This document shows, piece after piece, positions 54 through 37,737 of a stretch of DNA of 42,116 bases. Numbering within the stretch: position 1 is the stretch's first letter; the number at the start of each line of letters is the position of its first letter. The notes beneath the pieces are model-generated. The model was not told the DNA's origin and made no database searches. It saw only the letters and a program-made list of their open reading frames with translations. This DNA is from a virus. Taxonomy: Duplodnaviria; Caudoviricetes. The position numbers were made by a program, and so were the translations under genes. The stretch is taken from the IMG/VR virus record IMGVR_UViG_3300033232_000031, positions 1-42,116 of that record. The stretch is one strand, 5' to 3'.

Positions 54-60
54 ATATGTA

Positions 61-88
61 TTTGACACATCCTCGCGCAAATAGTTCC
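61..88 (-). promoter_or_regulatory. ECF/sigmaE-type promoter P1
   Basis: Minus strand GGAACT-16 nt-GTCAAA, preceded by AT-rich aaaataaatttacattc shared with P2. Confidence 0.8.
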
Positions 89-1365: not shown

Positions 1366-1393
1366 TTTGACACGCGCTGGCGGGATTAGTTCC
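1366..1393 (-). promoter_or_regulatory. ECF/sigmaE-type promoter P2
   Basis: Minus strand GGAACT-16 nt-GTCAAA in an intergenic region, AT-rich upstream. Confidence 0.8.
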
Positions 1394-2933: not shown

Positions 2934-2961
2934 TTAGACACGAGCTTGGACGATTGGTTCC
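2934..2961 (-). promoter_or_regulatory. ECF/sigmaE-type promoter P3
   Basis: Minus strand GGAACC-16 nt-GTCTAA; followed by hairpin cataaccg/cggttatg (2901-2929). Confidence 0.7.
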
Positions 2962-3456: not shown

Positions 3457-3484
3457 ACGCGGATTATTCCGCCATAATCCCCTC
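3457..3484. promoter_or_regulatory. 28-bp quasi-palindromic operator-like motif, copy 2
   Basis: Reverse complement gaggggattat-ggcgg-aataatccgcgt; intergenic. Confidence 0.5.
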
Positions 3485-5434: not shown

Positions 5435-5462
5435 TTCGACACAACATAATCAGATTAGTTCT
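5435..5462 (-). promoter_or_regulatory. ECF/sigmaE-type promoter P4
   Basis: Minus strand AGAACT-16 nt-GTCGAA. Confidence 0.75.
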
Positions 5463-5513: not shown

Positions 5514-5541
5514 TTCGACACAATCCACGCGGGTTAGTTCC
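5514..5541 (-). promoter_or_regulatory. ECF/sigmaE-type promoter P5
   Basis: Minus strand GGAACT-16 nt-GTCGAA, 79 bp upstream of P4. Confidence 0.8.
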
Positions 5542-5662: not shown

Positions 5663-5766
5663 CAGTCCACGCGCCTGCCCCGAATTCAGGCCCCCGGGGG
5701 GCAAAAAAATCTTTGCGCATAAAATGAGAAATGAACTCTCTGAAAATTTATTTTTTGTGAAAATTC

Positions 5767-5794
5767 GAGGGAATTATGGCAGAATAACGTGCGC
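5767..5794. promoter_or_regulatory. 28-bp quasi-palindromic operator-like motif, copy 3
   Basis: gagggaattat-ggcag-aataacgtgcgc, between the divergent promoters P5 and P6. Confidence 0.45.
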
Positions 5795-5844: not shown

Positions 5845-5872
5845 GGAACTTTGCCCGCAGCCCCGTGTCTAA
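5845..5872 (+). promoter_or_regulatory. ECF/sigmaE-type promoter P6 (morphogenesis operon)
   Basis: GGAACT-16 nt-GTCTAA, 62 bp upstream of the terS start. Confidence 0.75.
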
Positions 5873-5934: not shown

Positions 5935-6450
5935 ATGGACAAGGAAGTGGAAAGTTTTGGGGAGCTGCCCCAGTTTCGACCGCCGGCGGAGCGGGCTCCT
6001 ACGATGGGGGCTGTGGCGAAGGTGAATTATAGTCATACTGATATGATTGACTATATTATTGCGAATCCGGGGATTACGCAGAATCACCTGGCGGCAAGAT
6101 ATGGGTACTCAGTCGGCTGGGTCTCGAACGTGATGGCGAGTGATGCCTGGCAGAGCGCAATGGCGGCGCGGCGGAGTGAGATCTGTGACCCAGTACTGGT
6201 TGCGACGATTGAGGAAAGGTTTAAGGGCATTACCCTGTTGAGCCTGGAACGGTTGAAGCAGAAGCTGGAGGCTCCGCAGGTCTCAGACAATGTGGTGTTA
6301 AAGGCGGTGGAGTTGGGCGCGAAGGCAGTCGGGGTCGGCGGAAATGCTCCCCCGCCTCCGCAAGGAGATCATCTAGCCCAGCTAGCCAATCGGTTGATTG
6401 AGCTACAGTCGAAGGTTCGTAGTGCAAACATGGAGGTGATTGATGTCTAA
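5935..6450 (+). CDS. putative terminase small subunit (HTH)
   Basis: First gene of the late operon; HTH NPGITQNHLAARYGYSVGWVSNV; helical C-terminus. Confidence 0.6.
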   Translation: MDKEVESFGELPQFRPPAERAPTMGAVAKVNYSHTDMIDYIIANPGITQNHLAARYGYSVGWVSNVMASDAWQSAMAARRSEICDPVLVATIEERFKGITLLSLERLKQKLEAPQVSDNVVLKAVELGAKAVGVGGNAPPPPQGDHLAQLANRLIELQSKVRSANMEVIDV

Positions 6451-18673: not shown

Positions 18674-19387
18674 ATGACCGCGCCTAATGACAACACGCCA
18701 GTCTCCATCATCAATGATGCGTACTTTGACGCGGGCCTAACCCAAGAGGGACAGGTTCCTAACTCCGAGCAGATTGTCATGGGGATGCGGAAGTTGACGG
18801 ATATTATCAATCTTTTTCAAACGCAGGGATTAAAGCTTTGGCTAATGGAGGATTTGCTCGTCCCCCTCACAGCAGGGACTGGAACTTACACTCTCGGCCC
18901 TGCGGGATCTATGACTATGGTCAAGCCTACACGTGTGATTGATGCGTACTATACAGACGTCAACAACATTCGTAGGCCACTGACTCCGCTTGCCTGGAGT
19001 GAGTACGTTCGTTTGAGTCAGGTCACCCAAACAGGCCAGATCAATTCTTACTTCGTAGACAAGCAGCAGACTCAGTTAAGCGTACTCTTCTGGCCGCTCC
19101 CGGACGCAGTTGCAGCTACGGGGCAAGCTCACTTAGTTTTGCAGAAGCAAGCTACTAACTTTATTACCCTGACGGAGACGATGAACTTCCCCGTCGAGTG
19201 GAGGATTGCCCTACGTTGGGCCTTGGCCGATGAATTAGCGACGGGTCAGCCTCAGGCTATCATGGACAGATGCCAGGCTCGTGCGATCTCCTACCGGACG
19301 ATGCTGGAAGACTGGGACGTCGAGGACGCGCCAACTCGGTTCGCTCCGGATTCTCGTAGTCAGTATGCAACTGGAGCCTTTAGATAA
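18674..19387 (+). CDS. head-tail adaptor (P22 gp4 / T7 gp11-like)
   Basis: II.DA...AG N-terminus, FWPLPD, FP.EW..AL...LA..LA; position. Confidence 0.7.
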   Translation: MTAPNDNTPVSIINDAYFDAGLTQEGQVPNSEQIVMGMRKLTDIINLFQTQGLKLWLMEDLLVPLTAGTGTYTLGPAGSMTMVKPTRVIDAYYTDVNNIRRPLTPLAWSEYVRLSQVTQTGQINSYFVDKQQTQLSVLFWPLPDAVAATGQAHLVLQKQATNFITLTETMNFPVEWRIALRWALADELATGQPQAIMDRCQARAISYRTMLEDWDVEDAPTRFAPDSRSQYATGAFR

Positions 19388-20961
19388 TGGCACAAGCACA
19401 GTCTGTTGCTATTCCGCAACGTCTTCCCCTAGTAGTCGAGCCCGCTAACCGGGATGAGACCTCGCTGAAAGATGCGAAGTTACTCAATGGTTATGTAGAG
19501 TTTAACGAAAAAGAAGAAGAGTACTGGGTGTATAAGCGCCCAGGAATGCTGCAGTATGGCATTACGCATTCTGGTATAGGCCTGGGTGTGTACAATTGGC
19601 AAGGGCATATTTATTCGATCTTCGGAAATAAGCTTTACAAAGACGACGTAGAGATCGGAACAGTTGACTCTGCAAATGGAGTTTATCAGTGGTCACAGTC
19701 TCTAGGGGAGACGCCTCGGCTTCAGCTTGGGAATGGAGCCTTTGCATATAACTGGGATGGGACTGATCTTACCGAAATCACCGTGCTGGCTACGATTACA
19801 GCAGGAGACTTTATCACCGGAGTTGAGTACACTATTCTAGTTCCGGGGACGACAAACTTTACCTTGATCGGAGCAGCTAACAACAATGTTGGAACAGTCT
19901 TCACGGCCACAGGCCCGGGAACAGGTGATGGTACAGCGACCACTGAGGGGAATTTCCCGGACGATTTTGTTAAGGGTTGGGCTTACCTTGACGGGACTAC
20001 TTATGTCATGGGCACTGACGCTTATATTCATGGTTCTGATACTATAGTCGGGATGAACCGCCCGGATCTGTGGACGGACTTGCTAAATACCCTTGGCGCG
20101 CAGATCGAACCTGACCAAGGGGTCTGCCTAGCTAAACAATTAGTTTACGTCCTGGCCTTGAAAGAATGGTCAACGGAAGTTTTCTACGACGCGCAAAATC
20201 CTATCGGAGCCAGTCCTCTTGGGCCTGTACAAGGTGCAAAGATTAACTACGGTTGCGTCAGCGCTGACACTGTGCAAGAAATTGATGGCGTTCTTCTCTG
20301 GCTTGCTACGAATCGTTCTTCCGCTGCTCAAGTTATTATTGTCGAGAACCTCAAGCCAACGGTAATATCAACAAAGCCGATTGAACGATTGCTTGGGGAG
20401 GCGGACTTCACCGCCCTTGCCTCCTTCGGCATGAAGTACGAAGGGCATAGATTTTACGGCCTGACGCTGAAAAACGATAACATCACACTTGTTTATGATA
20501 TGACAGATAAGATGTGGAGTCAGTGGACAGACCCGGCAGGGAATTACTTTCCGATTATTGCTAGCAGCTATTTGCCGGGGGCGGGTAGAGTTCTCCAGCA
20601 CGAAACAAATGGAAAGTTGTATAGATTCGATTCTGATTACACTTCCGATGACGGAGAGTTGATAACTTTTGATCTATATACACCTAACTTTGACGGGGGA
20701 GTTCGCAGACGAAAGCAGGTTACTATGATGGAGTTCGTAGGAGATCGTGCGTCTGGGAGTGTTCTGCAAGTTCGCTTTAACGACTTTGACTACATCGCGG
20801 ATAAGTGGACTAATTTTCGCCTTGTTGATATGAATGTGATGAAGGCTACTTTGACGAACTGTGGCACGTTCCTTCGTAGGGCGACGCATATTCGTCACGC
20901 TTGCGATACACGGTTGCGTATCCAGGCGATTGAATTGCAACTAGACATTGGAACGCTCTGA
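19387..20961 (+). CDS. tail hub / packaged-DNA stabilisation protein (P22 gp10-like)
   Basis: KRPG, YLDG, STEVFYD, YGC, TLVYD....W beta-propeller-like pattern; position after adaptor. Confidence 0.75.
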   Translation: MAQAQSVAIPQRLPLVVEPANRDETSLKDAKLLNGYVEFNEKEEEYWVYKRPGMLQYGITHSGIGLGVYNWQGHIYSIFGNKLYKDDVEIGTVDSANGVYQWSQSLGETPRLQLGNGAFAYNWDGTDLTEITVLATITAGDFITGVEYTILVPGTTNFTLIGAANNNVGTVFTATGPGTGDGTATTEGNFPDDFVKGWAYLDGTTYVMGTDAYIHGSDTIVGMNRPDLWTDLLNTLGAQIEPDQGVCLAKQLVYVLALKEWSTEVFYDAQNPIGASPLGPVQGAKINYGCVSADTVQEIDGVLLWLATNRSSAAQVIIVENLKPTVISTKPIERLLGEADFTALASFGMKYEGHRFYGLTLKNDNITLVYDMTDKMWSQWTDPAGNYFPIIASSYLPGAGRVLQHETNGKLYRFDSDYTSDDGELITFDLYTPNFDGGVRRRKQVTMMEFVGDRASGSVLQVRFNDFDYIADKWTNFRLVDMNVMKATLTNCGTFLRRATHIRHACDTRLRIQAIELQLDIGTL

Positions 20962-21371
20962 TGGCTACGACTAAGTTTCAGCCGCCACCAACCTACGCAA
21001 TGCCTGTGATTGAGGATGCGCGTACAAAGAAACTTTTGTTTAATCCCATCTGGTTGAAGTGGTTTTTGGACCTGAGTCAAAATCTTGGCGTGACCGGGGC
21101 AGCGTCCGGAAGTGTCAGTAGCATTACGGCAGGGCCGGGACTAGCTGGAGGGGTCATTACAAACGTAGGTACGATCAGTCTCAAGTCGGTCGGCACTGCA
21201 GGGACTTACGGAACGGTTACAACGAATCAGTATGGTCAGGTAGTTTCAGGAACAGCTGAAGCGGTCGGGCTGAGTTTAACGATTACTACAGCGAAGCTGA
21301 CGACAGCTGGCGCTGATGGTAGTATGACATTTACAAATGGTAGACTTACGGCGCAGACCGCCGCGACTTAA
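20961..21371 (+). CDS. tail-associated virion protein (136 aa)
   Basis: NPIWLKWF N-terminus; G/T-rich fibre-like repeats. Confidence 0.7.
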   Translation: MATTKFQPPPTYAMPVIEDARTKKLLFNPIWLKWFLDLSQNLGVTGAASGSVSSITAGPGLAGGVITNVGTISLKSVGTAGTYGTVTTNQYGQVVSGTAEAVGLSLTITTAKLTTAGADGSMTFTNGRLTAQTAAT

Positions 21372-21382
21372 GGAATTTAAAA

Positions 21383-21583
21383 ATGGTGACAACTTTAATT
21401 GAGCGCAGAAACTTAACTGAAGATCATGCAACCAGAATTGCTTTACTGGAGCAAGGTATGGAAAATTTAGCGATCGAACTTCGAGGCATTAATGGAAATA
21501 TCAGTAAACTAATCTGGATTGCTGTTACTGCCGTTAGCCTGGCTATTGCTAGGTTTATAATCAGTGGTGGCTTGGCTATTTAA
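21383..21583 (+). CDS. small coiled-coil + TM protein (XhlA/holin-like)
   Basis: RIALLE coiled coil followed by KLIWIAVTAVSLAIARFII. Confidence 0.6.
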   Translation: MVTTLIERRNLTEDHATRIALLEQGMENLAIELRGINGNISKLIWIAVTAVSLAIARFIISGGLAI

Positions 21584-21596
21584 TTAGGAGAATGTT

Positions 21597-23126
21597 ATGG
21601 CAGCAAACTATGGACCTAGTTCAGGATATGACAGTGGCGGTTGGGGAAGTGGCTCAGGACTTAGTACCGGGGGAAGCGGTCTAGGATTTAGTAGTGGAGG
21701 AAGTGGCCTGGGGCTTAGCAGTGGTGGCTACGCGGGCCCGGGTGCGGACTATAGCTTAAACTCAGACTCGGGTTACGGTAGTTTTAGTAGCCCCGATTAC
21801 AGCTTGGGTTCTGGTACGACACAAGGCTTGAAAGTTGGTTATGATTTTAGCCCCGGTTATAGGTTCAATACAGGAACAGACTACGGGCTTAGCCCTGGCA
21901 GCTACGACATAGGAGGCGGACTTGGTTACGGACTTGATTACGGGTCGACGCTTGGTCCTGACTTTGGTACAAACGACTGGGGGCTAGATTATGGGCAACT
22001 TTCCAGGGCGCAGATGGGGGGGCTTGGTTTAAATGTAGCTCCTAATCCTAACTTCGGGCCTATGGGCTTTGATCAGCCTTTAGGAGTATCCGCGGGGCGA
22101 ACTCCTTTGTCTATGCGAGAGGAACCAGGGTTTTACGGGTCTAAGGCACATAAAGCTTTAAGTTTCATTGCCCAGTTCAATCCTGTGACAGCTGCTGCTA
22201 GTGGACTCTACGGAGTCTTTGGAGCGCCGGATCAAAAGACTGCAATGGGGGCAGCTCTTGGAATGGTACCAGGCCCTGCAGGCATGCTTGGAAGAGCTGC
22301 GTATGGGGCTTATAATTCACCTGACCCCGGTGGGTATCTTGGTACACAAGCAGCAGGAACTCTTGGCGGCATGGTCGGAAGTGCAATCGGCGGAGGCATC
22401 GCGGGACAGGCCGGAGCTCAACTAGGCGGGCAGCTCGGGGCGGAAGGACTTGGGGGACTGGCAGCAACCGAGGCTGCGCGTGCATATAAGGCGCGCCAAG
22501 ATGCAGGTATTTACGGCTCCGGAAGTCCTGTTGAGGCTGGCCGTGCACAGGCACAGGCAAGCATGGCTAGAGAAGCTTCTCAGCAAGCCTACGGCGGCGG
22601 CAGTGGGCGACCTGCTGAACGTGACTGGGTAGATACAGCTCTTAAGGTCGGATCAGGTCTCTACGGCATGTACCAAGGGAACAAGCAGCAGCAGCAAGCT
22701 CAGCAGGCGATTGCAGGTTCTGCTCCTTGGACAGCCCAGGGTGGAAATGCAATGGCAGGAGAGGAATTGCAGCGAGTCATACGCGGCGATCTAGCAAACG
22801 ATCCCGGGTTTAAGCTAGCGCAGCTAAGTGCAGCTCGGGCAGGTGCGCAGCAGCCCGGCGGATTCGCTGCGTCAGCGGCGGCAAATGCAGCGTTGAGGTA
22901 TCAGATGGAACGAATGCAGGCGCTAGGAGCTCCGGCAGGTGTAGGGTTTAATCCGGCCGCAGGGTATCAGACAGCTCAGCAAGGAACGCAGCAGGGGATT
23001 AATACATTCAAAACTGGAATTAGTGGAATTGCAGCAGGTATGACAAGTCCTACAGCAGGCACTGGCATGAACACTATGCCACCTTGGTTGCAGCAGTACT
23101 TGATCAACAACAACATGAGGAGTTAA
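21597..23126 (+). CDS. putative DNA ejection protein 1 (Gly-rich)
   Basis: G/S/Y/D low-complexity N-terminus, glycine-zipper segments, NDPGFK motif; position. Confidence 0.7.
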   Translation: MAANYGPSSGYDSGGWGSGSGLSTGGSGLGFSSGGSGLGLSSGGYAGPGADYSLNSDSGYGSFSSPDYSLGSGTTQGLKVGYDFSPGYRFNTGTDYGLSPGSYDIGGGLGYGLDYGSTLGPDFGTNDWGLDYGQLSRAQMGGLGLNVAPNPNFGPMGFDQPLGVSAGRTPLSMREEPGFYGSKAHKALSFIAQFNPVTAAASGLYGVFGAPDQKTAMGAALGMVPGPAGMLGRAAYGAYNSPDPGGYLGTQAAGTLGGMVGSAIGGGIAGQAGAQLGGQLGAEGLGGLAATEAARAYKARQDAGIYGSGSPVEAGRAQAQASMAREASQQAYGGGSGRPAERDWVDTALKVGSGLYGMYQGNKQQQQAQQAIAGSAPWTAQGGNAMAGEELQRVIRGDLANDPGFKLAQLSAARAGAQQPGGFAASAAANAALRYQMERMQALGAPAGVGFNPAAGYQTAQQGTQQGINTFKTGISGIAAGMTSPTAGTGMNTMPPWLQQYLINNNMRS

Positions 23127-23127
23127 T

Positions 23128-24240
23128 ATGGAGCTGGACCCTGCAGTCTTAGGCATTCACGCCCAAGAAGAGGCCAACCGGAGAAGTCTGGCGGCAGGCC
23201 TCAGTGCGCAGAAGACTATTGGTGAGATCGCGGCGCAGCCAGTGGATATGGCGTATAAGCAATCTCTGACCCGCGTACACACAGCAGACGCGGATAAATC
23301 AGAAGAAGCTGCAAGGGCAGCTAAGGCCTCGAGGGATCTGCAACTTCAGTTTCTTACTGCCCGCCAAGAAGAGCAGGCTCGTCGCCAGTTATCCGAAGCC
23401 GCTGCGAAGCAAGGAAAGATTGCTACTGTAGGTGACTTACCTCCCGGCGGATCTATCGTAAAGGCTTCTCAAGCAGATGAGCTGGAAGCGTTTGCGAATT
23501 ACGCCAGCAAGACCATGCCCCCAATGGAGCTGGCTAAACTGCGCGGGGATATTGCAGAGATCAAGCGGAAAGAAGCTGCAGAGGCGGCTTCGCTCGCAGC
23601 TGCCGGGGTTAACGAACATAAGCAACAGGTAGCACAGTTTGAACAAATTGGCAACATCGCAGGAGCTGCGGGGGCAAGTGAAGCAAACTACCGTGCGATC
23701 ATGATGTCTCCACAGCGCCAGCTGCTTCCGAAAGAGCTGACAGGGAACTGGCGGATGGATGCCCCAGTTTTGAAGGCAATTGAGCAAGCTAGCCAAGACT
23801 CGATTAAACGGGCGAACTTGCAGCGGCAACAGGTCGACACAGAAGCACGACGGCGACTGGCCAATGCAAGGATGTCGGAATCTGCCGCACGAATAAAGAA
23901 TTTGGAGATAACAGGAAAGACACTTGAGCGGGACTACAAACAGCAGACGAAAGCGTACGGGAAGTATAGCCGTGAGGCCCTGGAAGCTAAGCAGCTCACG
24001 GCAGAGAATAAGAAGAGCTTGATTGCCGCTCGTAATGTAAAGAACTTTCCACCCGCTCCCCTTGATCCGGAAGGAAGGGAGTTCGAGACGGTTTACACGG
24101 CCAGGGACGGAAAGACCCGCGCGACGTGGTCATTTGACCCGGCGACTGGCAAGGGCGTATGGATGCCTTACACGGACACCAGCTTCGGCGAAGAGGCCCC
24201 TGAAGATGCAGACCTTATGGCAGAAGAAGAGGAAGAATAA
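23128..24240 (+). CDS. putative DNA ejection protein 2
   Basis: A/Q/E-rich helical protein between two other internal-virion-like genes. Confidence 0.7.
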   Translation: MELDPAVLGIHAQEEANRRSLAAGLSAQKTIGEIAAQPVDMAYKQSLTRVHTADADKSEEAARAAKASRDLQLQFLTARQEEQARRQLSEAAAKQGKIATVGDLPPGGSIVKASQADELEAFANYASKTMPPMELAKLRGDIAEIKRKEAAEAASLAAAGVNEHKQQVAQFEQIGNIAGAAGASEANYRAIMMSPQRQLLPKELTGNWRMDAPVLKAIEQASQDSIKRANLQRQQVDTEARRRLANARMSESAARIKNLEITGKTLERDYKQQTKAYGKYSREALEAKQLTAENKKSLIAARNVKNFPPAPLDPEGREFETVYTARDGKTRATWSFDPATGKGVWMPYTDTSFGEEAPEDADLMAEEEEE

Positions 24241-27200
24241 TGGCGACCTATTTGGACGAATCTTTTATGACAGGCGGGACTCCGGAGACTGCCACGACGC
24301 CAGCGAAGCCCATGCGAGGCGCGCTGACGGAATACTTCATGACCGGAGCGCCGGAGGTTGTGGAATCGCCGAGCCTGTGGGAACGTTTCACCGCTTCGCA
24401 AGACCGCGGAATGGAAGTCTTGCAACGGCCCGCGACTCCCGAGCTGTGGGGAGGCGAGGCTAGGGGACAGGCGGCGCAGCCGGATCTGAAGTCGAAGCGC
24501 GGACTGGACCAGTTCGGGCAAGAAGTCAAGGCCTTGTCGAATATGCTTGTGGGACTTCCGGGAGGGCTTGCCGGCGTGGGCATGGATATAGGCTCGCGGA
24601 TTAGTTCCTTGGCCATTGGGGAAGATCCGAAAGCGGCAGGCCTCCGTGCCAGAGCTACGGCGGAAAATACAAACGAACTCTGGACGAAGATTACAGGGGC
24701 ACTAGGACTGCATCAGGAAGCTCCAGGGTCAAACATTGAAGCCTTGATGGGCAAAGGCATGGAAGTAACGGACGTTTGGGGAGAGCAGGCTGAAGCAGAA
24801 ACTGGTGGTGTGGTGACGAAGGAAACCGTGCAATCTGTCCGTGACACGATTCTGAATTCCCTGGGGCTTAGAGGCCTCCGCATGGCAGGCGTGGCGAAGG
24901 GCCGTGCGCCTAAGCCGGGGCAAGGAACAGCAGATGCACTGAGTGCTGATGCGGCAATCCGTCAGTCAAAGGCTCGGGTAGCAGAGACTGCTGCAGCGAA
25001 GGTCATGGAAGAAGTTGCGGCGGGGACTGCTAAGGCAGAAACCGTTGCGAAAGTTACGGAAGAAGCGCTGAAAAACAGATCGCCACTAGAGGAAGCTTGG
25101 GCAGGAAAGAAGCTGAAGACGGAGGCTGAAGCAAGCCCTGCGTGGGACGCGATGGTTAAGGGACTGGTGGAGCCAGAGCCCATGCCGGCGCCACAGGGGC
25201 CTGGGCTGACTCCCAAGACTCGGCTGGCGGAGCCGACGGTGCTAGGTAAAGGACCTGATCCTATCGTCACAGGTATGGATAAACTGCGGAAGGGACTGCT
25301 TCTTAGCAACGCGGAAGCGAAAGCGATTCGTCGCCTCGGGCAAGGTGAATCATTGCTCGCAGTCGAACCTGTCGCACCGCCTCGGGCTACGTTTGGGGAG
25401 CGGCTAGCTGCTCCATTGCCCCCACGTGGGCCAGGAGTAGTGCCAAAAACTCGTATGACAGAAGGCGTCTCGATAGCAAAGGAGGCTCCGGTTCCTGTAG
25501 TTGAGTTGCATGGGGTAGTGGAGAGACTGGTAGATTCGGGCGTAGCGAAGTTGCAACGAGGAGAACTGGTCTCCGCCGCAGAAGCCAAGGCTATCCGTGC
25601 GCTTAAGCCACTGCCAGAACAAGGCGTAATCGTCGGCCCGAACGGAAAACCATACTTCCAGCGTGGCCGGGTTGACCCGGCGTTGTTGAAGGTTCTAGGA
25701 CTCATGGGCGTCGGAGCTGTTGCGGGGACGGCGCTTTATAACTGGTGGCAAAGTTCGGGTGGATTATCGGAGGATAATGCAAACGAATTAAAGGCTCCAG
25801 GCATCTCAACCGAACAGGCCGCAACCCTTGCCGCCGGACTCATGGGAGCAACTGTGTTACGGAAAGCACCTACGATTTTTGATAAGATGTCTACGTCCGA
25901 GCTAGTCTCCGCAATGAAGGCAGGCGGGAAGGAAGCGGAGGGCGCAGCCAGAGCTATCCATGACGAGACTCGCTCTCGCTTGGAACGTAGCCTGTACACC
26001 TACGAAGGGAAGATTGACGTTGAGAGCGTAGTGCAGGAGACTTACGCCAAGGCTTTCGAAGCGATGGCGAAGGGAGAGTTCCGCGGAGACGCGAAGCCCT
26101 ACACGTTCCTTCACGCAGTGGCTCATAACTTGGCAAAAAATGCTGCTCGGGATAAGAAAGTCACGCCCGAAGCCACGGCACGATCGCGTGTTGAAGGCCC
26201 TGAAGGAGAAGTGATTGACATTGCAGATACCTTGACGAGTGAGGCAACTCGGACGCCTGAGCAGCTTTTGCAGAACCAGCAGATGGTCGGAAAGATGCAG
26301 GCGGCGATTGATAAGCTTCCTGAGCAGCAACGCAATGTGTTTGAAATGGCAGAGATTGAAGGGCTCCCGTATGAAGACATTGCAGCACAGCTAGGTATTC
26401 CAATAGGGACTGTACGATCAACACTGAGTCGTGCGCGGGAAGGGCTGCAGAAGTCTCTGCAAGAGTATAAACCAGAATCTCAAAGTGGTAAGATTAACCA
26501 AGATCTGCTAGAGGCCGCAGGGCTGGCCGCGGGAGTCGCAGTCATCGGCGCAAATATGGCAGATGATGGTAGTAAAGGTGCACTTATCGGAGCACTGACA
26601 GGGCTGGTTGGAAAGGGTCTGTATGGTACTGGCCCTGGCCGAGCTGCTGTAATGCGTGGAACGACTAGGCTGATGGAAGTCCTTCCGGAGTTGCGCAGGG
26701 CTTCCAGGGAAATGGAGCTGGCGTCAAGTAAGGAAGTTGCAGCAGCTAGTGAAGCGATCTCCTCGCTTATCAAGCCCGCGAAGAAGCTTGCAAAGGAGCA
26801 GTATGCGAAGCTAGATGAAGCCTATACGACTTCGGATCCGAGTGCCTTGGCAGAAGTAATAAAGGGGAATTCGGAACTGGAGGTAGGATACTTAAAAGTA
26901 CGCGAGTTTCTGAAGAAGACTGAAACGCAGTTGAAAGGGTTTGGCAGATTTAAGGAAGGAATTCCTGATTTTCTTCCCCTGATGGTGAAAGATTACAAAG
27001 GGCTGATGGAGGTTCTTGGCCGAGAAGTTAGGACAGGACTTGAAGATTATCTTAGCCGGGCAAATATGAAGTCGCTGAAGGAACGCGGGACAGGCCTGAA
27101 TGAAGTTGAGAAGTCTTTGCTGGTAAATGACTACTTGATTCGTGACCCGGCAACCTCGTACCTTCCAGGCTTCGCCAAGCACCGGCGGCTGAAGATGACG

Positions 27201-28601
27201 AAGGAAATTCGTCCATTTTATCATAAGATGGAGGACGCGCTGATTCACTACGCTCATGCAGCAGTGGAGGATATTGCCGAAGCGAAGTTCTTCGGGAAGG
27301 ATCTGCGGGTGTCCAAGCGAGACGGACAGTCCTACACTAATCTGGATAATTCCATTGGCGCCCTGACTCACCGGGCGATGGAAGAAGGGCGGATGACTCC
27401 TGAGCAGGCGGTGGAAGTACAAGCAGTTCTGCGCGCTCGTTTCGGCAAGGGAAAGCAGGCACCTAGCGGTTGGCTGCAGGATGTACGGAACGTCTCCGGC
27501 ATCGGGCTGCTCGGCCAGATCGGATCTGGGTTGATCCAGACTTCAGAAGGGTTATTATCCACTTACCATCACGGCATTCGCCCGGCGGTGGAAGCCGCCG
27601 GAACGCTAATCGCTCGCAGGGGAATTAAGCCCTCCGAGTTCGGCTTGGCCAATCACGTTATTGAGGAAGTTATTGGCAAGCGCCCCTCAGGACAGGCGCT
27701 CAGTGCAGTTCTTAAGGCCAACCTGCTTGCTGCCCTGGACCAGCTTGGTATGGCACAGAACTTGACTGCTAGCTTTATCAAGAACAAGCGACTGGCTCAG
27801 ACAGCCTCGGGCCAAGCGAAGCTGATGGAAAAGTGGAGCGCAGACTACGGCCCTGATATGCCTCAGCTTATTAAGGAGTTACAAAGCTCTACGACGAAGG
27901 CGCGGACTCCTCTGGTCGATTCGTTGCTGTACCAAGAACTATCCGACATCCGCCCGACTTCTCGGATGGAGGCGACTGAGCTATACAACGCCCACCCAAA
28001 TGCTCGTCTGATGTACCATCTGAAACAGTTTATGCTGACCCAGGCGGATGTACTGTACAGGGACTCATATGCGAAGATTAAATCAGGCGACCCTAAAAAG
28101 GTAGCAGTTGGACTGAAAAACCTCGCCCTGTACTCCGCAGCTTTGTCCGTTGCGGTTGTACCTTCAGACGCGATTAAGAGTTGGCTTATGGGGCGGGGCC
28201 TTCAACTCGACAAGATCGATTATGTAGATAATTTTGTCAGGAACTTCGGCCTCAGTCGTTACATGGGAGAGAAGATCGCGCGTAGTAAAGATCCTGTTGC
28301 AGGGATGGCGGAGGCGGGGAGAGAGCTTGTCACACCTCCTGCGTACAGTGTCGGTAAGACGCTTGGGAAAGGAGTGAGTGACCCGAAAGAGCTGGTACCG
28401 TTAGTCCCGCTGGCCGGAAGGATTATTTATAACAGGGAATTCGGCGGGAATGAAAAGGCGGCCGCAAGGGAGAAAGCACAGGCTCGTATTGATCTTCGAA
28501 ATGCAAGGGAGGCGCGTAATCCGGCGCTTAAGGCCGCCCGGCTTCACAAGGCAGAGCTGGCGAAGAAGAAAGCTGAACGTAAAGCAAGGAGTGCAAGATG
28601 A
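24240..28601 (+). CDS. large internal virion/ejection protein (1453 aa) with embedded RpoE-like ECF sigma domain
   Basis: Position and size of a podovirus large ejection protein; ~25880-26475 encodes sigma2 DVESVVQETYAKAF...FRGDAKPYTFLHAVAHNLAKN and sigma4 LPEQQRNVFEMAEIEGLPYEDIAAQLGIPIGTVRSTLSRARE. Confidence 0.85.
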   Translation: MATYLDESFMTGGTPETATTPAKPMRGALTEYFMTGAPEVVESPSLWERFTASQDRGMEVLQRPATPELWGGEARGQAAQPDLKSKRGLDQFGQEVKALSNMLVGLPGGLAGVGMDIGSRISSLAIGEDPKAAGLRARATAENTNELWTKITGALGLHQEAPGSNIEALMGKGMEVTDVWGEQAEAETGGVVTKETVQSVRDTILNSLGLRGLRMAGVAKGRAPKPGQGTADALSADAAIRQSKARVAETAAAKVMEEVAAGTAKAETVAKVTEEALKNRSPLEEAWAGKKLKTEAEASPAWDAMVKGLVEPEPMPAPQGPGLTPKTRLAEPTVLGKGPDPIVTGMDKLRKGLLLSNAEAKAIRRLGQGESLLAVEPVAPPRATFGERLAAPLPPRGPGVVPKTRMTEGVSIAKEAPVPVVELHGVVERLVDSGVAKLQRGELVSAAEAKAIRALKPLPEQGVIVGPNGKPYFQRGRVDPALLKVLGLMGVGAVAGTALYNWWQSSGGLSEDNANELKAPGISTEQAATLAAGLMGATVLRKAPTIFDKMSTSELVSAMKAGGKEAEGAARAIHDETRSRLERSLYTYEGKIDVESVVQETYAKAFEAMAKGEFRGDAKPYTFLHAVAHNLAKNAARDKKVTPEATARSRVEGPEGEVIDIADTLTSEATRTPEQLLQNQQMVGKMQAAIDKLPEQQRNVFEMAEIEGLPYEDIAAQLGIPIGTVRSTLSRAREGLQKSLQEYKPESQSGKINQDLLEAAGLAAGVAVIGANMADDGSKGALIGALTGLVGKGLYGTGPGRAAVMRGTTRLMEVLPELRRASREMELASSKEVAAASEAISSLIKPAKKLAKEQYAKLDEAYTTSDPSALAEVIKGNSELEVGYLKVREFLKKTETQLKGFGRFKEGIPDFLPLMVKDYKGLMEVLGREVRTGLEDYLSRANMKSLKERGTGLNEVEKSLLVNDYLIRDPATSYLPGFAKHRRLKMTKEIRPFYHKMEDALIHYAHAAVEDIAEAKFFGKDLRVSKRDGQSYTNLDNSIGALTHRAMEEGRMTPEQAVEVQAVLRARFGKGKQAPSGWLQDVRNVSGIGLLGQIGSGLIQTSEGLLSTYHHGIRPAVEAAGTLIARRGIKPSEFGLANHVIEEVIGKRPSGQALSAVLKANLLAALDQLGMAQNLTASFIKNKRLAQTASGQAKLMEKWSADYGPDMPQLIKELQSSTTKARTPLVDSLLYQELSDIRPTSRMEATELYNAHPNARLMYHLKQFMLTQADVLYRDSYAKIKSGDPKKVAVGLKNLALYSAALSVAVVPSDAIKSWLMGRGLQLDKIDYVDNFVRNFGLSRYMGEKIARSKDPVAGMAEAGRELVTPPAYSVGKTLGKGVSDPKELVPLVPLAGRIIYNREFGGNEKAAAREKAQARIDLRNAREARNPALKAARLHKAELAKKKAERKARSAR

Positions 28602-29188
28602 CTGGACGCGCGGACTTTTGGGCGAGCGGAGACTGGAACGCCGTCTGCTATGAATGTGGCAGGAAGCGGAAGGCCTCTACGCTGAAGAGGAATTGGCAAG
28701 GGTACTACGTTTGCGCGGAGCATTGGGAGCCTCGGCAACCACAGGACTTTGTCAGGTCAGTCCCTGATGTTATTACACCTCCGTGGGCACAGCCGCCGAG
28801 TGATGTGTTTAAGCCATGGAATTATACTCCCCGATTCTTAGAAAATGTCAATCTTCGTGGCGGTATAGCTGCTTACATGGAAACTTATGCAGACTACTTT
28901 GCAGAAGACTATTTAGTTAATGTAGCTACCCCGGAGATTAGTTTAATATTTGATGCACAAAGACTGTTTAACGATTCCTTATTTGTGGAAGAAGAGTTGT
29001 TAAATATTAACTTTGTTAAATCTCTAGCCGAGTTTGTTACGGTAACTGAAACTGTAGCATTTATGCGCAAAAAAGACGTGACGGATACTCTTTCTTTAAG
29101 CGAGGCTGGATCTATCTGGAATTTAAATTATGTCGATCCGACCTATTTTGAGTCTGATTATGTTGGTGAGTTGTTGATAACTTTTTAA
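28598..29188 (+). CDS. phage protein with N-terminal Cys/His Zn-ribbon
   Basis: CYECG...W.G..VC..HWEPRQPQDFV; YFAEDY/YFESDYV repeats. Confidence 0.7.
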   Translation: MTGRADFWASGDWNAVCYECGRKRKASTLKRNWQGYYVCAEHWEPRQPQDFVRSVPDVITPPWAQPPSDVFKPWNYTPRFLENVNLRGGIAAYMETYADYFAEDYLVNVATPEISLIFDAQRLFNDSLFVEEELLNINFVKSLAEFVTVTETVAFMRKKDVTDTLSLSEAGSIWNLNYVDPTYFESDYVGELLITF

Positions 29189-29197
29189 GGAGTTGAA

Positions 29198-29638
29198 ATG
29201 AGAGATGATTTTAAGATTTTAGGTGCTGTAGCACTTACTTTGTGGGGGGCAGATGGAAAGCTAAAAGAGCGGCGTAAATTTAAAAACTTAGTTGTTTCAA
29301 CTGGATTACAACTTGCCGCACAAGCATTAGGTAATGGAACAATTACTCCAATTACAGATGTAGCTGTTGGAACCGATGCGACTGCTCCTGTCCCCGGACA
29401 GACGGCATTGTTAGCAGAGCTTGAACGCACGGCTCTTATAGATACTGTCGTTACAGGTTCAATTATAACGTATACGACTACTTTTGGCCCAGGCATTGGT
29501 ACTGGTGCACTTGTTGAAGCTGGGCTATTTAATGCCGCAATTGGAGGCATTATGCTGTCTCGGGTAACTTTTCCGGTTATTAATAAGGCAGCTAGTGACA
29601 CACTTGGGGTTACCTGGACTCTTACGTTAGGAGCTTAA
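29198..29638 (+). CDS. tail/tail-fibre-associated protein
   Basis: NLVV.TG, AVGT, EAGLFNAA.GG.MLSR..F.VINK...DTL.VTW pattern. Confidence 0.75.
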   Translation: MRDDFKILGAVALTLWGADGKLKERRKFKNLVVSTGLQLAAQALGNGTITPITDVAVGTDATAPVPGQTALLAELERTALIDTVVTGSIITYTTTFGPGIGTGALVEAGLFNAAIGGIMLSRVTFPVINKAASDTLGVTWTLTLGA

Positions 29639-29641
29639 GCC

Positions 29642-30940
29642 ATGACTATTATTGTTACACGAGCGGGGAAAGGAAGTCCTCTCACAAATACTGAGATGGA
29701 TACGAATCTCATAAATCTTAACACTGGAAAAGTAGAAACAACCGGCAACGAAACCATTGCCGGCATAAAGACATTTACCAGCGCAATTGCCGGGGATATT
29801 ACCGGCAATGCAGCAACAGCTACCACAGCTACCACAGCTACCACAGCAGAAGCCTGTACAGGTAACGCAGCAACAGCTACGTTTGCAAATGCATCGTCCG
29901 GTACGTTCCTTAAAGCCGACCCAACCGCCACCGCCTTCACTAAAACAGGCGCCGGAGCCGCCAGCATCAAAGCAGGCACCATCGTCGATGTAGCTGGCAC
30001 CACTATCACATTCACCAGCGCTACCGCCATCACCATGCCTACGCTGACGGCAGGTACTGACTATGCTGTTTGGGTCACGCCTGCCGGGGCTGTGCAAGCT
30101 GTGGCCGACCCCTATAGCGCACCAGCTACGCCGCCAGTGACTGGTGCACGCAAAATTGGTGGATTCCATTATGGATTAGTAGCACCCGGTACAACCGTTG
30201 CTGGCGGCTCATTTGCCACCACTGGCAGCGGCATGATCTGGACGCAACCCAATGTGGATGCTATTGCGGGTATTGATGAGTTTAGTTTTTGGGATTTAAA
30301 GTTTCGCTGTGCTGGCGAGCAACGTGGCATGGCATTTGACCCCTATGCCAAGTGCTGGGCAGCTATTTACTGGTGCAGCTCAAATCACATTGCTAATGGC
30401 ATTAGCGCCTACAACACCGACGTGGCCAGCGGCACAGTGTTGCCACGCATTCCATTGGCTTATGGCGGCAATGGCACTGCCGCGTATAACAATGGCAACT
30501 GGTGGACTTTTAACGAGATAGCTGCCTCATTCGGCCTGCGCCTGCCAACCGAGCGTGAGTTCATCAGTGCTGCTTACGGGGTGACAGAAAACCAGTCGCT
30601 AGGGGGAGCAAGCGTCACCATCCCGAGCACAGCAAGGCAAGCAGGCTATACCAGCCGCATTGGGCTTGAGCAGACAACAGGCCATATTTGGACTTGGGGT
30701 GCAGATAGTTCGACACGTTGGGACGGTGGTGCAACACCGTGGGCTTGGCGCAACGTTAACGGTGGCCGAGGTCAAGTTTATTTGTATGGCGACGTCAATC
30801 TGGTGCGGGTCTTGATGGGTGGCAGCCGCGGCAACGCTGCGTTCTCCGGCTCGCGGGCTGCCTACTGGAGCAACTATCCGTGGGCCTCGGGCTGGCTCAT
30901 TGGCCTGCGCGCCTTCGGTGACCACTTGCTGCTTGTCTGA
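29642..30940 (+). CDS. DGR target: tail fibre / major tropism determinant-like protein with C-terminal CLec-type variable region
   Basis: Fibre N-terminus (TRAGKGSPLT), RKIGGFHY, LRLPTEREF, C-terminal GGS.....SGSR...W...PW......GLR; 3' end matches TR. Confidence 0.92.
   Translation: MTIIVTRAGKGSPLTNTEMDTNLINLNTGKVETTGNETIAGIKTFTSAIAGDITGNAATATTATTATTAEACTGNAATATFANASSGTFLKADPTATAFTKTGAGAASIKAGTIVDVAGTTITFTSATAITMPTLTAGTDYAVWVTPAGAVQAVADPYSAPATPPVTGARKIGGFHYGLVAPGTTVAGGSFATTGSGMIWTQPNVDAIAGIDEFSFWDLKFRCAGEQRGMAFDPYAKCWAAIYWCSSNHIANGISAYNTDVASGTVLPRIPLAYGGNGTAAYNNGNWWTFNEIAASFGLRLPTEREFISAAYGVTENQSLGGASVTIPSTARQAGYTSRIGLEQTTGHIWTWGADSSTRWDGGATPWAWRNVNGGRGQVYLYGDVNLVRVLMGGSRGNAAFSGSRAAYWSNYPWASGWLIGLRAFGDHLLLV
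30819..30921 (+). repeat. DGR variable region (VR)
   Basis: 103-bp ungapped match to 31355-31457; 11 of 14 mismatches fall at TR adenines. Confidence 0.95.
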
Positions 30941-30942
30941 GG

Positions 30943-30954
30943 CGGCGCAAGCCG
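30943..30954 (+). other. DGR target-recognition hairpin downstream of VR
   Basis: CGGC-GCAA-GCCG immediately after the target stop codon. Confidence 0.6.
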
Positions 30955-30967
30955 ACGGGATTAAACA

Positions 30968-31354
30968 ATGGATAAATCAGACCACACCGGCAAATCAGAG
31001 CCCAAAGTGACAATGGCAATCATTGAGCGCTTTGATGGCTTTGTGAACTACCTGTACCCCATGTTGACCAACACCAGCAGGCAGCACCGCGTGATGCGTG
31101 ACACCTTGCTGGCAACCATGTTTCAACAGTACAGGTTGTTTCACGGTGCGGGAAAAAGCAACCAGGTGTCGCGCTTGTACGAAGCGGACGCTGGCATGGC
31201 TTATCTGAGAGAGCTTTTGCGCTTTATGGCAGGGCCTGACCGCAAGCTGGTGTCGCGTCGTCAATACGAGGTGGCCTCTGTCCATCTTGCAGAGACAGGT
31301 GCCATGCTTGGGGCTTGGATCAAGTCAGCGCAAAAGAGGTCGGGAGGGGGCTAA
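30968..31354 (+). CDS. avd: DGR accessory variability determinant (Avd, four-helix bundle)
   Basis: 128 aa between VR and TR; YLYP, LYEADAG...LR.LLR, ETGAMLGAWIK motifs. Confidence 0.9.
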   Translation: MDKSDHTGKSEPKVTMAIIERFDGFVNYLYPMLTNTSRQHRVMRDTLLATMFQQYRLFHGAGKSNQVSRLYEADAGMAYLRELLRFMAGPDRKLVSRRQYEVASVHLAETGAMLGAWIKSAQKRSGGG

Positions 31355-31457
31355 GTGGCAACCGCAACAACGCTGCGTTCTCCGGCTCTCGGGCTTCCAA
31401 CTGGAACAACTATCCGTGGAACTCGAACTGGAACATTGGCTTGCGCGCCTTCGGTGA
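31355..31457 (+). ncRNA. DGR template region (TR)
   Basis: Nine AAC triplets in the VR reading frame; lies between avd and RT. Confidence 0.95.
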
Positions 31458-31612
31458 TGATGAAATCAAAGGAATACGCACCTGGTGCTGCTACGGCGTC
31501 ACCGGGCGACCTGAAGTTTTATGGTCAGCCTCGCCCGGCCTGCTTTGGCAAACACACTAAGAGGTTCAGAGAGCGGGGAGTAGGGCTTTGCCTGAAAGCC
31601 GCGCTGACATTT

Positions 31613-32596
31613 ATGGGAACCAAACACAAAAACTTATTTGAGCAAATCACGGCACCAGATAACCTGTGGGCCGCTTACCGAAAAGCATCTTTGGGTAAGC
31701 GCCAAACCTTGGGTTATCTGATGTTTCGCCAGAATGAGGCGGCTAATCTGCATTATTTGCGCGAGTCTTTGGTAGATGGAAGCTACAGACCAGGGATGCC
31801 ACGCACGTTCATGGTGTATGAGCCAAAGCAGCGCGAAATATCGGCTTTGCCGTTTCTTGACCGGGTTGCCCAGCACGCGTTGTGCGGCATCATTGAGCCG
31901 ATATTTGACAAAATATTCATGCCACAAAGTTACGCATGTCGCATAGGGAGAGGCACCCATAAAGCCGCCATCACGGTGCAAGCCATGCTACGCAACGCCA
32001 TCCGCGCCGGGCACGATCCATGGGTGCTTAAAACGGATTTCTCAAAATATTTTGCCAACATTGACCGCGCAGCCCTGCACACAGAATACCGGCGCAAACT
32101 GGCGTGCCGACCCACCCTGGCGTTGCTTGAGCAATTTATTCCGCCGCGGGGATTCGGGCTACCAATTGGCAGCCTGACAAGCCAGCTTAGCGCTAATTTG
32201 TACGGGCATATTTTTGACCGCTGGTTGGTGCATCAAGTTGGCATCAGCAGGTTTGCCAGATACATGGATGACGTGGTGGTGATTGGCTATAGCCGTGAAG
32301 CCATGGCGCTGCTGCAAGCTCAGGCTGAGAGTTTTGTGACGCAACACATGGGGCTGCATTTTTCGCGCTGGAGCTTGCAGCCATGGCAGCGCGGCGTGAA
32401 CTTTTGTGGTTATCGGATATGGCCAACACACAAACTGCTGCGTCGCGCCAGTGTGGCCCGCGCCAAAACAAAACTGCGCCGCTTTCGTGAGACTGGCGAC
32501 GTCGAGACACGAGACAAGTTTCTGGTCGCATGGCGCGGCCACGCTAAATGGGCCGATGCCCGAAATTTGATGACCTACATTGGAGCCACAACATGA
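31613..32596 (+). CDS. DGR reverse transcriptase (327 aa)
   Basis: EPK.R.I.A..F.DRV.QHA, KTDFSKYF.NID, GLPIGSLTSQ (DGR-type SQ), YMDD, FCGYR; probable start MGTKHKNLF. Confidence 0.95.
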   Translation: MGTKHKNLFEQITAPDNLWAAYRKASLGKRQTLGYLMFRQNEAANLHYLRESLVDGSYRPGMPRTFMVYEPKQREISALPFLDRVAQHALCGIIEPIFDKIFMPQSYACRIGRGTHKAAITVQAMLRNAIRAGHDPWVLKTDFSKYFANIDRAALHTEYRRKLACRPTLALLEQFIPPRGFGLPIGSLTSQLSANLYGHIFDRWLVHQVGISRFARYMDDVVVIGYSREAMALLQAQAESFVTQHMGLHFSRWSLQPWQRGVNFCGYRIWPTHKLLRRASVARAKTKLRRFRETGDVETRDKFLVAWRGHAKWADARNLMTYIGATT

Positions 32597-36750: not shown

Positions 36751-37737
36751 ATGCCTACTATTCGTAAACGTCCTACCGGCTGGCAAGCCATGATCAGGCT
36801 TAAAGATCATCCCCCAGAGTCTCAAATTTTCGACACCAAAGCTAGAGCCTCTGCATGGGGGCATGCAAGGGAAGCTGAGTTGAAAAACCAAGGAAAATCC
36901 TTGGTCAAAGCTACCTTGCTGGATGCCTTTGAGAAATACCGCGCTGAGGTGTGCCCTGATCTAAAGTCTGGTGCCAATGCCTCTAAACGGCTGCTGGCGC
37001 TGTCTAAGATCAAAGACCTACTGCCTATGTCCAAACCTGTTGTTGAAGTCACAGCAGTCGATCTGAGCAAGTTCAGAGACACCCGCTTAGGTGTTGTTGC
37101 CATTGCAACTGTACGTAAGGAAATGACCATCATCAGATCTGTCTTGGAGTCTGCTCGTAGAGACTGGGGCATGATCATGATCAACCCGATTCAGGATGTC
37201 AAAAAGCCACCAGCACCAGCAGATCGTAAACGACTATTCACTGACACTGAAGCCAAAAAGATCATTGACTCTCTAGGCTACGTTGGTGAAGTCACTACGC
37301 TACAACACCAAGTGGCTGTAGCATTACTTCTGGCTTTTGAAACTGGAATGAGGGCAGGTGAGTTGTTACACCTGGAATGGCATGAGGTCTATCTTGACCA
37401 AAAGTATGTGCATCTAGATGAAACCAAGAATGGTACCGAACGTGATGTGCCTATATCCTCGAAAGCTGTTGATCTGATTACTAAGCTCAAAAGCCTTGAT
37501 AAGAACCACGTATTCACCATTACTTCAGCCAGTCTGGATGCCTTGTTTCGCAAGGCAAGAGACAGGCACAAGATCAAGAATCTTCATTTCCATGATAGTC
37601 GGGCAAACGCAATTACCCTATTATCAAAGAAGCTAGATATCTTGCCGTTGGCTCGAATGATTGGGCATAAAGATATCAAAAATTTGATGATTTACTATCG
37701 GGAGTCTGCTACTGAAATAGCAGATCAACTGGGTTAA
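36751..37737 (+). CDS. int: tyrosine recombinase (phage integrase)
   Basis: TGMRAGE (R), TKNG (K), FHDSR (HxxR), IGH, IYY catalytic set. Confidence 0.95.
   Translation: MPTIRKRPTGWQAMIRLKDHPPESQIFDTKARASAWGHAREAELKNQGKSLVKATLLDAFEKYRAEVCPDLKSGANASKRLLALSKIKDLLPMSKPVVEVTAVDLSKFRDTRLGVVAIATVRKEMTIIRSVLESARRDWGMIMINPIQDVKKPPAPADRKRLFTDTEAKKIIDSLGYVGEVTTLQHQVAVALLLAFETGMRAGELLHLEWHEVYLDQKYVHLDETKNGTERDVPISSKAVDLITKLKSLDKNHVFTITSASLDALFRKARDRHKIKNLHFHDSRANAITLLSKKLDILPLARMIGHKDIKNLMIYYRESATEIADQLG

What the first reader, a model, noticed from the sequence alone, without database searches (positions are those of the whole stretch)
25880..26475. Complete RpoE-like ECF sigma factor embedded in a virion ejection protein
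Seen: in-frame within the 1453-aa ORF are both sigma2 (DVESVVQETYAKAF..FRGDAKPYTFLHAVAHNLAKN; cf. RpoE DVVQEAFIKAY..FRGDSAFYTWLYRIAVNTAKN) and sigma4 (LPEQQRNVFEMAEIEGLPYEDIAAQLGIPIGTVRSTLSRARE; cf. LPEDLR..I.LRE.DGLSYEEIA.IMDCPVGTVRSRIFRARE), with normal spacing. Established: podovirus ejection proteins enter the cell with the DNA, and N4 injects a virion RNA polymerase. Inference: this phage injects a sigma factor that redirects host core RNAP to its six GGAACT/GTCNAA promoters before any phage gene is expressed. I do not know of a described case, but novelty needs a literature check.
Basis: partly seen in the sequence, partly recalled or inferred. Interest (0 to 1): 0.9.

Follow-up and report, generated by a model that had tools for sequence, protein, structure and literature searches.

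The report
Phage injects its own sigma factor
An uncultured short-tailed phage carries a complete bacterial-type sigma factor inside a large protein predicted to be injected with its DNA, and six matching promoter sequences, so it likely points the host's RNA polymerase at its own genes from the first moment of infection.

Summary
Confirmed. Residues ~550-745 of the 1453-aa ORF are a whole RpoE/AlgU-like ECF sigma, keeping most DNA-contact residues; 51 of 64 homologues carry it, so it is no chimera. The C-terminal 620 residues are predicted to fold like T7 gp16-type ejection proteins, and relatives carry other polyvalent-protein cargo. Six GGAACT-N16-GTCNAA sites head the early genes and the terminase operon. 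Among 17 near-complete related records, 9 of 9 with the sigma have 3-7 sites and 0 of 8 without do, but this is one evolutionary contrast; two sigma-less relatives have sigma70-like sites at the same spot. Against: one incomplete sigma-less relative (G045) has the same sites, so host sigmaE may also serve; packaging, delivery and activity are untested. Best reading (0.65): a virion-delivered sigma that starts transcription. This scan noted divergent sigma-like modules in ejection proteins on other DNA before; I found no paper describing one.

The parts
24240..28601 (+). 1453-aa gp16-like ejection / polyvalent protein, last and largest of the ORFs after the tail-nozzle gene
25887..26474 (+). 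ECF sigma domain, aa 550-745 (sigma2 about 25890-26162, sigma4 about 26256-26462)
25659..25874 (+). Repeat module 1: QxGx(I/V)D motif plus Gly/Ala-rich hydrophobic helical hairpin before the sigma (aa 474-545)
26481..26630 (+). Repeat module 2: QxGx(I/V)N/D motif (G750 invariant in 49 aligned proteins) plus hydrophobic hairpin after the sigma (aa 748-797)
26637..28499 (+). Conserved helical C-terminal domain (aa 800-1420), predicted fold like T7 gp16 / PhiM1 tetrameric ejection protein
28554..28598 (+). Basic C-terminal tail, as described for T7 gp16
   Evidence: PMC8954989 passage
61..88 (-). ECF-type promoter site; in relatives the equivalent site heads the exonuclease-Sak4-DNA polymerase-primase operon, which is missing from this contig
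1366..1393 (-). ECF-type promoter site before the 211-aa ORF (576-1211)
2934..2961 (-). ECF-type promoter site (GGAACC variant)
5435..5462 (-). Weaker tandem ECF-type site (AGAACT) before the first early gene (4990-5385)
5514..5541 (-). ECF-type promoter site, first of the early direction
5845..5872 (+). ECF-type promoter site heading the operon that leads to terminase, capsid and the sigma-bearing gene; a sigma70-like site stands here in sigma-less G009 and G013
5696..5709 (.). Conserved G-run/A-run between the divergent promoters; candidate packaging or genome-end signal (inference)
5773..5788 (.). Inverted repeat ATTAT-N6-ATAA(C/T), also at 32-47 and 3463-3478; candidate operator for early/late switching (inference)
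5935..6450 (+). HTH-like ORF ('o213', listed from an upstream GTG at 5809) before the terminase block; small terminase or regulator, unresolved
21597..24240 (+). Two upstream ORFs (509 and 370 aa) in the position of the smaller ejection proteins; no family hit, assignment by position only

Best explanation
The ORF holds a complete RpoE-like ECF sigma domain inside a protein predicted to be the phage's gp16-type ejection protein, and that domain is likely delivered with the DNA and likely directs host RNA polymerase to the phage's six GGAACT-N16-GTCNAA sites before any phage protein is made. Steps: (1) shown by sequence and profiles: the domain is whole and conserved, and the sites exist; (2) predicted by fold and gene order: the protein is packed in the head and ejected like T7 gp16; (3) inferred from T7 gp16 topology and from the two hydrophobic hairpins with basic residues on the sigma side: the sigma ends up on the cytoplasmic face of the inner membrane, either tethered at the entry channel or cut free at the repeated QxG motif; (4) inferred from comparative genomics: it, rather than only the host's sigmaE, reads the sites; (5) inferred: five sites fire the early and replication genes, the sixth fires the morphogenesis operon, which makes more of the protein; timing would come from entry order and an operator-binding regulator.
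For: Sigma in 51 of 64 non-self homologues; no free-standing relative above 37% identity among the best 120 listed of 262 hits of 94-340 aa. SigmaE contact positions kept in 47 representatives (<90% identical): R176 47/47, T169 46/47, R/K171 46/47, S172 40/47, F/Y64 47/47, N80 42/47 (roles from PMC1540707, PMC6648896). C-terminal model (pLDDT 81): top PDB row PhiM1 ejectosome 8vb2_A (E 4e-3, prob 0.96; VIA Z 6.5, rank 1), T7 core 9jyy_I rank 4, 78 BFVD rows at E<=1e-3, several named internal virion/core protein with TM about 0.5. Relatives carry ART-PolyVal, LPD23, SLT and PcfJ-like cargo in the same protein. Sites in 9 of 9 sigma-bearing and 0 of 8 sigma-less records >=90% complete. Sigma70-like sites at the orthologous spot in G009 and G013. 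G040, with K171/N172/Q176 in place of R/S/R (the residues that read the GG in sigmaE), has no GGAAC site but four early-direction CTTCC-N14-GTCTAA sites whose -35 lacks the GG (expected 0.02). Contigs G022:C47 and C50, with a third sigma type, have no GGAAC site but two TTTGTC-N18-CGACAT sites each. The operon encoding the sigma is itself headed by an ECF site, so the circuit needs a sigma that is already there.
Against: No virion proteomics, transcript starts or biochemistry; no cultured member (no match in 50,697 phage records). The consensus is nearly that of E. coli sigmaE (GGAACTT, 16 nt, GTCAAA; PMC1312014), so a host sigma could start the circuit. G045 (68% complete, distant) has 2-3 such sites at the same locus while its 1479-aa ejection-type protein has no sigma; two unchecked scan notes describe complete sigma-less podophages with such sites. 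The 9/9 vs 0/8 split is one branch on the terminase+portal tree, and only 2 of the 8 share head genes with this phage. The G040 and C47/C50 motifs were found after the fact and not confirmed in new genomes (one non-C47/C50 genome, G010, has one TTTGTC-type match). W73 is F and F175 is S in this protein. The PDB fold matches are weak (TM 0.2, Z 6.5 for a helical protein). The hairpins are low-confidence in the model, so topology is inferred.
Confidence: 0.65

Rival explanations
1. Host sigmaE/AlgU starts infection from these sites; the phage sigma is active but matters only after new synthesis, as a feedback amplifier that frees the phage from anti-sigma control, and its place in the virion protein is incidental.
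For: Near-identical consensus to E. coli sigmaE (PMC1312014); G045 has the sites without a detected sigma; scan notes e1-9748210 and e1-9730415 (unchecked); the late operon has an ECF site.
Against: A late-acting sigma could be a free gene (as phiEco32 gp36/SU10 gp32, PMC4281155), yet no close free-standing form was listed and three separate lineages put a sigma inside the ejection protein; G040 and C47/C50 motifs do not match sigmaE; sigma-less sister lineages use sigma70-like sites.
Confidence: 0.22
2. The injected domain is a decoy that binds the host anti-sigma (RseA/MucA) at the membrane and so releases host sigmaE, which then reads the phage sites.
For: Membrane-proximal position between hydrophobic hairpins; closest solved relatives are sigmaE/AlgU, which bind such anti-sigmas.
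Against: DNA-reading and melting residues are the best conserved positions; promoter motif changes with the recognition helix in G040 and C47/C50; about 30% identity to sigmaE is low for mimicry.
Confidence: 0.08
3. The domain is a vestige or an assembly chimera, and the sites are unrelated to it.
For: No reads could be laid on the junctions; several members of the clade lack the sigma.
Against: Same fusion in 51 of 64 homologues from several independent collections; collinear with complete record G001 across the gene; even GC across the borders; conserved functional residues.
Confidence: 0.02

Closest known systems
Polyvalent proteins of phages (Iyer et al. 2017, PMC5512222)
   Same: Large late-region protein joining unrelated domains; relatives carry ART-PolyVal, LPD23, SLT; proposed to be injected and to jump-start transcription.
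   Different: The main text has no occurrence of 'sigma' or 'ECF'; figures and supplements were not readable, so a listing there cannot be excluded. No zincin peptidase was detected in this protein.
N4 virion RNA polymerase; T4 Alt
   Same: Virion-packed protein that sets up early transcription on entry (passages in PMC5512222).
   Different: Here the cargo is a promoter-specificity subunit for the host enzyme, not a polymerase or a modifying enzyme.
T7 gp16 / PhiM1 tetrameric ejection protein
   Same: Last and largest ejection gene, helical C-terminal domain with a similar predicted fold, hydrophobic segments, basic C-terminal tail; gp16-C is described as cytoplasmic (PMC8954989).
   Different: No sequence-level match; no transglycosylase in this copy; T7 uses host sigma70 promoters for entry-coupled transcription and carries no sigma.
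Free-standing phage ECF sigma (phiEco32 gp36, SU10 gp32)
   Same: Phage-encoded ECF sigma with its own promoter motif.
   Different: Separate middle gene for middle/late promoters, early genes use sigma70 (PMC4281155). SU10 gp32 was seen with one peptide in a PEG-precipitated preparation that the authors say may hold non-virion proteins.
E. coli sigmaE / Pseudomonas AlgU (RpoE)
   Same: Domain layout, specificity loop, -35 contact residues, promoter consensus and 16-nt spacer.
   Different: About 30% identity, below the RpoE equivalog cut-off; fused in a structural protein; no anti-sigma gene recognised beside it.

Membership tests
ECF (group 4) sigma-70 factors | sigma2 and sigma4 only, joined by a short linker | tested here: met
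   Pfam r2 and r4_2 above cut-off, TIGR02937 above cut-off, two-domain model
ECF (group 4) sigma-70 factors | Conserved -35 reading and -10 melting residues | tested here: met
   R726, S727, R731, F614, N630 match sigmaE R171, S172, R176, F64, N80; W73 is F623 and F175 is S730
ECF (group 4) sigma-70 factors | Binds core RNA polymerase and initiates at cognate promoters | not testable with these tools
RpoE equivalog (TIGR02939) | Score at or above the curated cut-off | tested here: not met
   103 bits against 236: RpoE-like, not an RpoE orthologue by this model
RpoE equivalog (TIGR02939) | Adjacent anti-sigma gene (rseA/mucA) | tested here: inconclusive
   No such family hit among 64 window ORFs scanned; many small ORFs have no hit
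T7 gp16-type ejection proteins | Last of three internal-protein genes after the tail nozzle in a podovirus | tested here: met
   Nozzle-type phrog_578 at 19387-20961, then 509, 370 and 1453 aa ORFs, then tail-fibre genes
T7 gp16-type ejection proteins | gp16-like helical C-terminal fold | tested here: inconclusive
   Top PDB rows are ejection proteins but weak (E 4e-3, Z 6.5); many predicted internal-virion-protein matches at E<=1e-3
T7 gp16-type ejection proteins | Present in the virion and ejected into the envelope | not testable with these tools
   No isolate
Phage polyvalent proteins (Iyer 2017) | Large protein in the virion-gene region combining disparate domains, shuffled among relatives | tested here: met
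   Sigma, PcfJ-like, ART-PolyVal, LPD23, SLT, M15 peptidase in varying order among relatives
Phage polyvalent proteins (Iyer 2017) | Processing into units by a zincin metallopeptidase (common, not universal) | tested here: inconclusive
   No peptidase hit in this protein; a repeated QxG motif borders the cargo

The most novel reading that the evidence does not exclude
The sigma stays tethered by two membrane hairpins at the mouth of the DNA-entry channel, captures host core polymerase there, and loads it on the inward-pointing promoters at the first-entering genome end, so that transcription pulls the genome in: an N4/T7-like entry motor built from a stolen stress sigma factor, re-invented with different sigma-promoter pairs in at least three phage lineages.
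Probability: 0.25. Interest if true: 0.93.

Novelty: new variant of a known kind. Interest (0 to 1): 0.8.

Why it matters
Phages are described as starting transcription with the host's own holoenzyme, with an injected polymerase (N4) or with an injected modifying enzyme (T4 Alt). An injected sigma factor would be a further route: private promoters, no dependence on host sigma70 or growth state, and a cargo of only 200 residues. This case is unusually testable because the domain is close to E. coli sigmaE, the candidate promoters are sharp, and natural variants give matched sigma-promoter pairs for swap experiments; such pairs could also serve as orthogonal expression parts.

Tried and rejected
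No cultured phage matched the C-terminal domain. No sequencing run was listed for 20000-29900, so no reads were laid and no RNA holder was listed. No viral relative of the C47-type protein was found to test its motif on new genomes; a collection scan for that motif was not possible. Metagenome records could not be searched whole, so six 43-47 kb contigs remain untested for sites. Sigma-less members inside the sigma clade (L016, P0026, P0033, P0037, P0038, P0042, P0043, P0057) lie on fragments or records not held, so loss-of-sigma/loss-of-site contrasts within the clade are open; 0 sites in 9 of 11 fragments says little. Unbiased bipartite-word counts in sigma-less genomes gave repeats and codon artefacts, no promoter family. 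Contig ends cluster near the HTH-like ORF (6 of 24 within 800 bp upstream) but not at one base, so the genome end is not fixed. An internal start at M550 has no clear ribosome-binding site and the Met is not conserved. The antisense site at 26055-26082 and three other relaxed matches in genes scored below threshold. Literature searches listed no paper on a sigma inside an ejection protein; I saw only listings for most rows, and subscription journals are largely missing.

Full report
Observation. The window is a whole 42,116-bp virus record. The ORF at 24240-28601(+) is 1453 aa and holds the quoted motifs in frame. Pfam finds sigma region 2 (24.2 bits, cut-off 24) and region 4 (66.2 bits, cut-off 25.7). 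NCBIfam places the domain in the ECF superfamily (87 bits, cut-off 42.9), nearest to RpoE but far below that equivalog's cut-off (103 against 236). The nearest solved sequences are AlgU and E. coli sigmaE. A model of aa 470-806 shows two confident domains with a floppy linker, and its best structural rows are sigmaE and AlgU. The domain spans about aa 550-745.

Is the sigma intact? Using the alignment to 1or7 (numbering offset inferred and checked against the papers) and passages of PMC1540707 and PMC6648896: the base-reading residues R171, S172, R176 and the melting residues F64 and N80 are kept (R726, S727, R731, F614, N630); W73 is F and F175 is S. Over 47 representatives below 90% identity, R176 is invariant, T169 46/47, R/K171 46/47, S172 40/47, F/Y64 47/47, N80 42/47, aromatic at 73 in 45/47.

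The carrier protein. The gene follows terminase, portal, capsid and a nozzle-type gene and two unassigned ORFs of 509 and 370 aa, and precedes tail-fibre genes. A model of aa 800-1420 (53 sequences, pLDDT 81) has as best PDB row the PhiM1 ejectosome (E 4e-3, probability 0.96), with T7 core protein fourth; the independent aligner also ranks PhiM1 first (Z 6.5, 219 residues, a value that is weak for a helical protein); 78 predicted viral structures match at E<=1e-3, several named internal virion or core protein with TM about 0.5. Passages of PMC8954989 describe T7 gp16 as having two membrane regions, a cytoplasmic C-terminal part and a basic tail; this protein ends in a basic tail. So it is likely the gp16-type ejection protein; that is a prediction, not a measurement.

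Homologues. Two searches gave 64 other proteins of 918-2460 aa; 51 carry the sigma. Others in the family carry PcfJ-like, ART-PolyVal, LPD23, SLT or peptidase domains, and the sigma can sit at different places. This is the polyvalent-protein pattern of PMC5512222, whose main text has no 'sigma' or 'ECF' (passages only; figures and supplements unseen). Each cargo is bordered by a repeated QxGx(I/V/A)D motif followed by a Gly/Ala-rich hydrophobic hairpin; here one lies on each side of the sigma, G750 is invariant in 49 aligned proteins, and basic residues lie on the sigma side. I infer a cytoplasm-facing loop, tethered or cut free. The motif recalls type IV prepilin cleavage sites (recalled, untested). 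No free-standing sigma above 37% identity was among the best 120 listed of 262 hits.

Promoter sites. Four exact sites against 0.15 by chance; six with a matrix trained on other genomes. Five point left over small early-type genes; one points right towards terminase. In relatives the last leftward site heads exonuclease, Sak4, methylase, DNA polymerase and primase; the window lacks that block and its last site points off the contig end, so the record is probably incomplete. The consensus and 16-nt spacer match E. coli sigmaE (PMC1312014 passages).

Do the sites follow the sigma? I searched 26 of 79 loci as whole records, chosen for length. Of 17 records at least 90% complete, 9 of 9 with the sigma have 3-7 sites and 0 of 8 without have any (Fisher p 4e-5). 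That p overstates the case: on a terminase+portal tree of 28 genomes the sigma-and-site genomes form one clade (support 1.0) with sigma-less sisters G049 and G009, and only G009 and G013 of the eight share head genes with the window. At the spot of the rightward ECF site, G009 has TTGCAC-17-TATAAT and G013 TTGACA-17-GACAAT. Of 24 loci around the HTH-like ORF, 21 have upstream DNA; 14 show the rightward ECF site by pattern and the other 7 by eye with a 17-nt spacer or further upstream; most have unknown sigma status. A second set, found through the capsid protein, gave 15 records (16 given, one not held): a sigma in 1, strict sites in 3. G038 and G046 have one strict match each that scores below the matrix threshold. 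G045 (68% complete) has 2 strict sites plus one with a 17-nt spacer near the terminase end, yet its 1479-aa ejection-type protein has an ART domain and no sigma: an unresolved counter-case, since the missing third might hold a free sigma or the host's sigmaE may be used.

Co-variation. G040 carries a sigma in a 2155-aa protein with a different C-terminus; its recognition helix has K, N, Q at positions 171, 172, 176. It has no GGAAC site, but four early-direction sites CTTCC-N14-GTCTAA with the same -10 and a -35 lacking the GG that S172 and R176 read in sigmaE (expected 0.02 per genome; 0 in the 39 other records). Two phage-like contigs in assembly G022 (C47, C50) carry a third sigma type, have no GGAAC site, and have two TTTGTC-N18-CGACAT sites each in the early direction (1 match in the 38 other records). 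Both motifs were found after the fact, and I could not test them on new genomes.

Mechanism. Most likely the protein is ejected like gp16, exposes the sigma in the cytoplasm, and the sigma recruits host core polymerase to the early sites; the operon that encodes it is itself behind an ECF site, so a sigma must pre-exist, either injected or the host's. A conserved G-run between the divergent sites and an ATTAT-N6-ATAAT repeat near three of them suggest a genome end or packaging site and an operator; if the end lies there, all sites point inward and entry order could set timing (inference). Confidence 0.65; host-sigmaE start with late feedback 0.22; anti-sigma decoy 0.08; vestige or chimera 0.02.

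Novelty. Known neighbours are N4 virion polymerase and T4 Alt (PMC5512222 passages), free phage ECF sigmas for middle/late genes (PMC4281155 passages) and free sigmas of jumbo phages (PMC7824862 passages). Six searches aimed at an injected or fused sigma listed nothing that describes one; I read only listings for most rows, and coverage of subscription journals is poor. PMC11440229 was read as passages. This scan's own unchecked notes report divergent sigma-like modules in giant ejection proteins of other phages and sigma-less podophages with sigmaE-type sites; none matched this protein by sequence. They are leads, not support. I class it as a new variant of a known kind (new cargo of injected polyvalent proteins, and probably a new way to start phage transcription), interest 0.8.

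Noticed in passing
window 29642-32596 (+): Diversity-generating retroelement: Mtd-like tail fibre, Avd, reverse transcriptase, with a 103-nt repeat pair at 30819-30921 and 31355-31457, 86% identical. Among 39 other records only G048 has a similar RT.
   Followed up: partly
window 36751-37955: Tyrosine integrase facing an excisionase-like gene; no close integrase in the related records, so this member may be temperate. How a prophage whose main promoters are ECF-type would be induced is unexplained (host sigmaE is one candidate).
   Followed up: partly
window 1-88 and 42116: The polymerase, primase, Sak4, exonuclease and methylase genes of relatives are absent; the record has no end repeat and is probably missing several kb.
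   Followed up: yes
G022:C47 (L162-L164) and G022:C50 (L165-L167): A perfect palindrome GTTCCAA(A/T)TTGGAAC occurs 9 times in each contig, mostly between genes, and in none of 23 other records. Unexplained.
   Followed up: no
L002, L003, L009, L012, L025, L174, L175 just after the large gene: An extra ECF-type site directly downstream of the sigma-bearing gene (7 of 31 loci examined); in L007, L017, L024 and L213 the operator-like inverted repeat stands there instead.
   Followed up: partly
G045:C1:30472-30812: SigmaE-type sites in a distant relative with no detected sigma; possible use of the host's sigmaE.
   Followed up: partly
L236:2676-8021: A further divergent ECF sigma in a related large protein; its genome could not be searched for a motif.
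   Followed up: no
window 12677-13009 (+): GroES-like small gene in the head module (phrog_3188).
   Followed up: no
window 40294-41133 (-): PAPS-reductase-domain gene, possibly for DNA modification.
   Followed up: no
P0011: A 918-aa homologue called as starting just before the sigma; may be a split gene or a gene-calling artefact.
   Followed up: no
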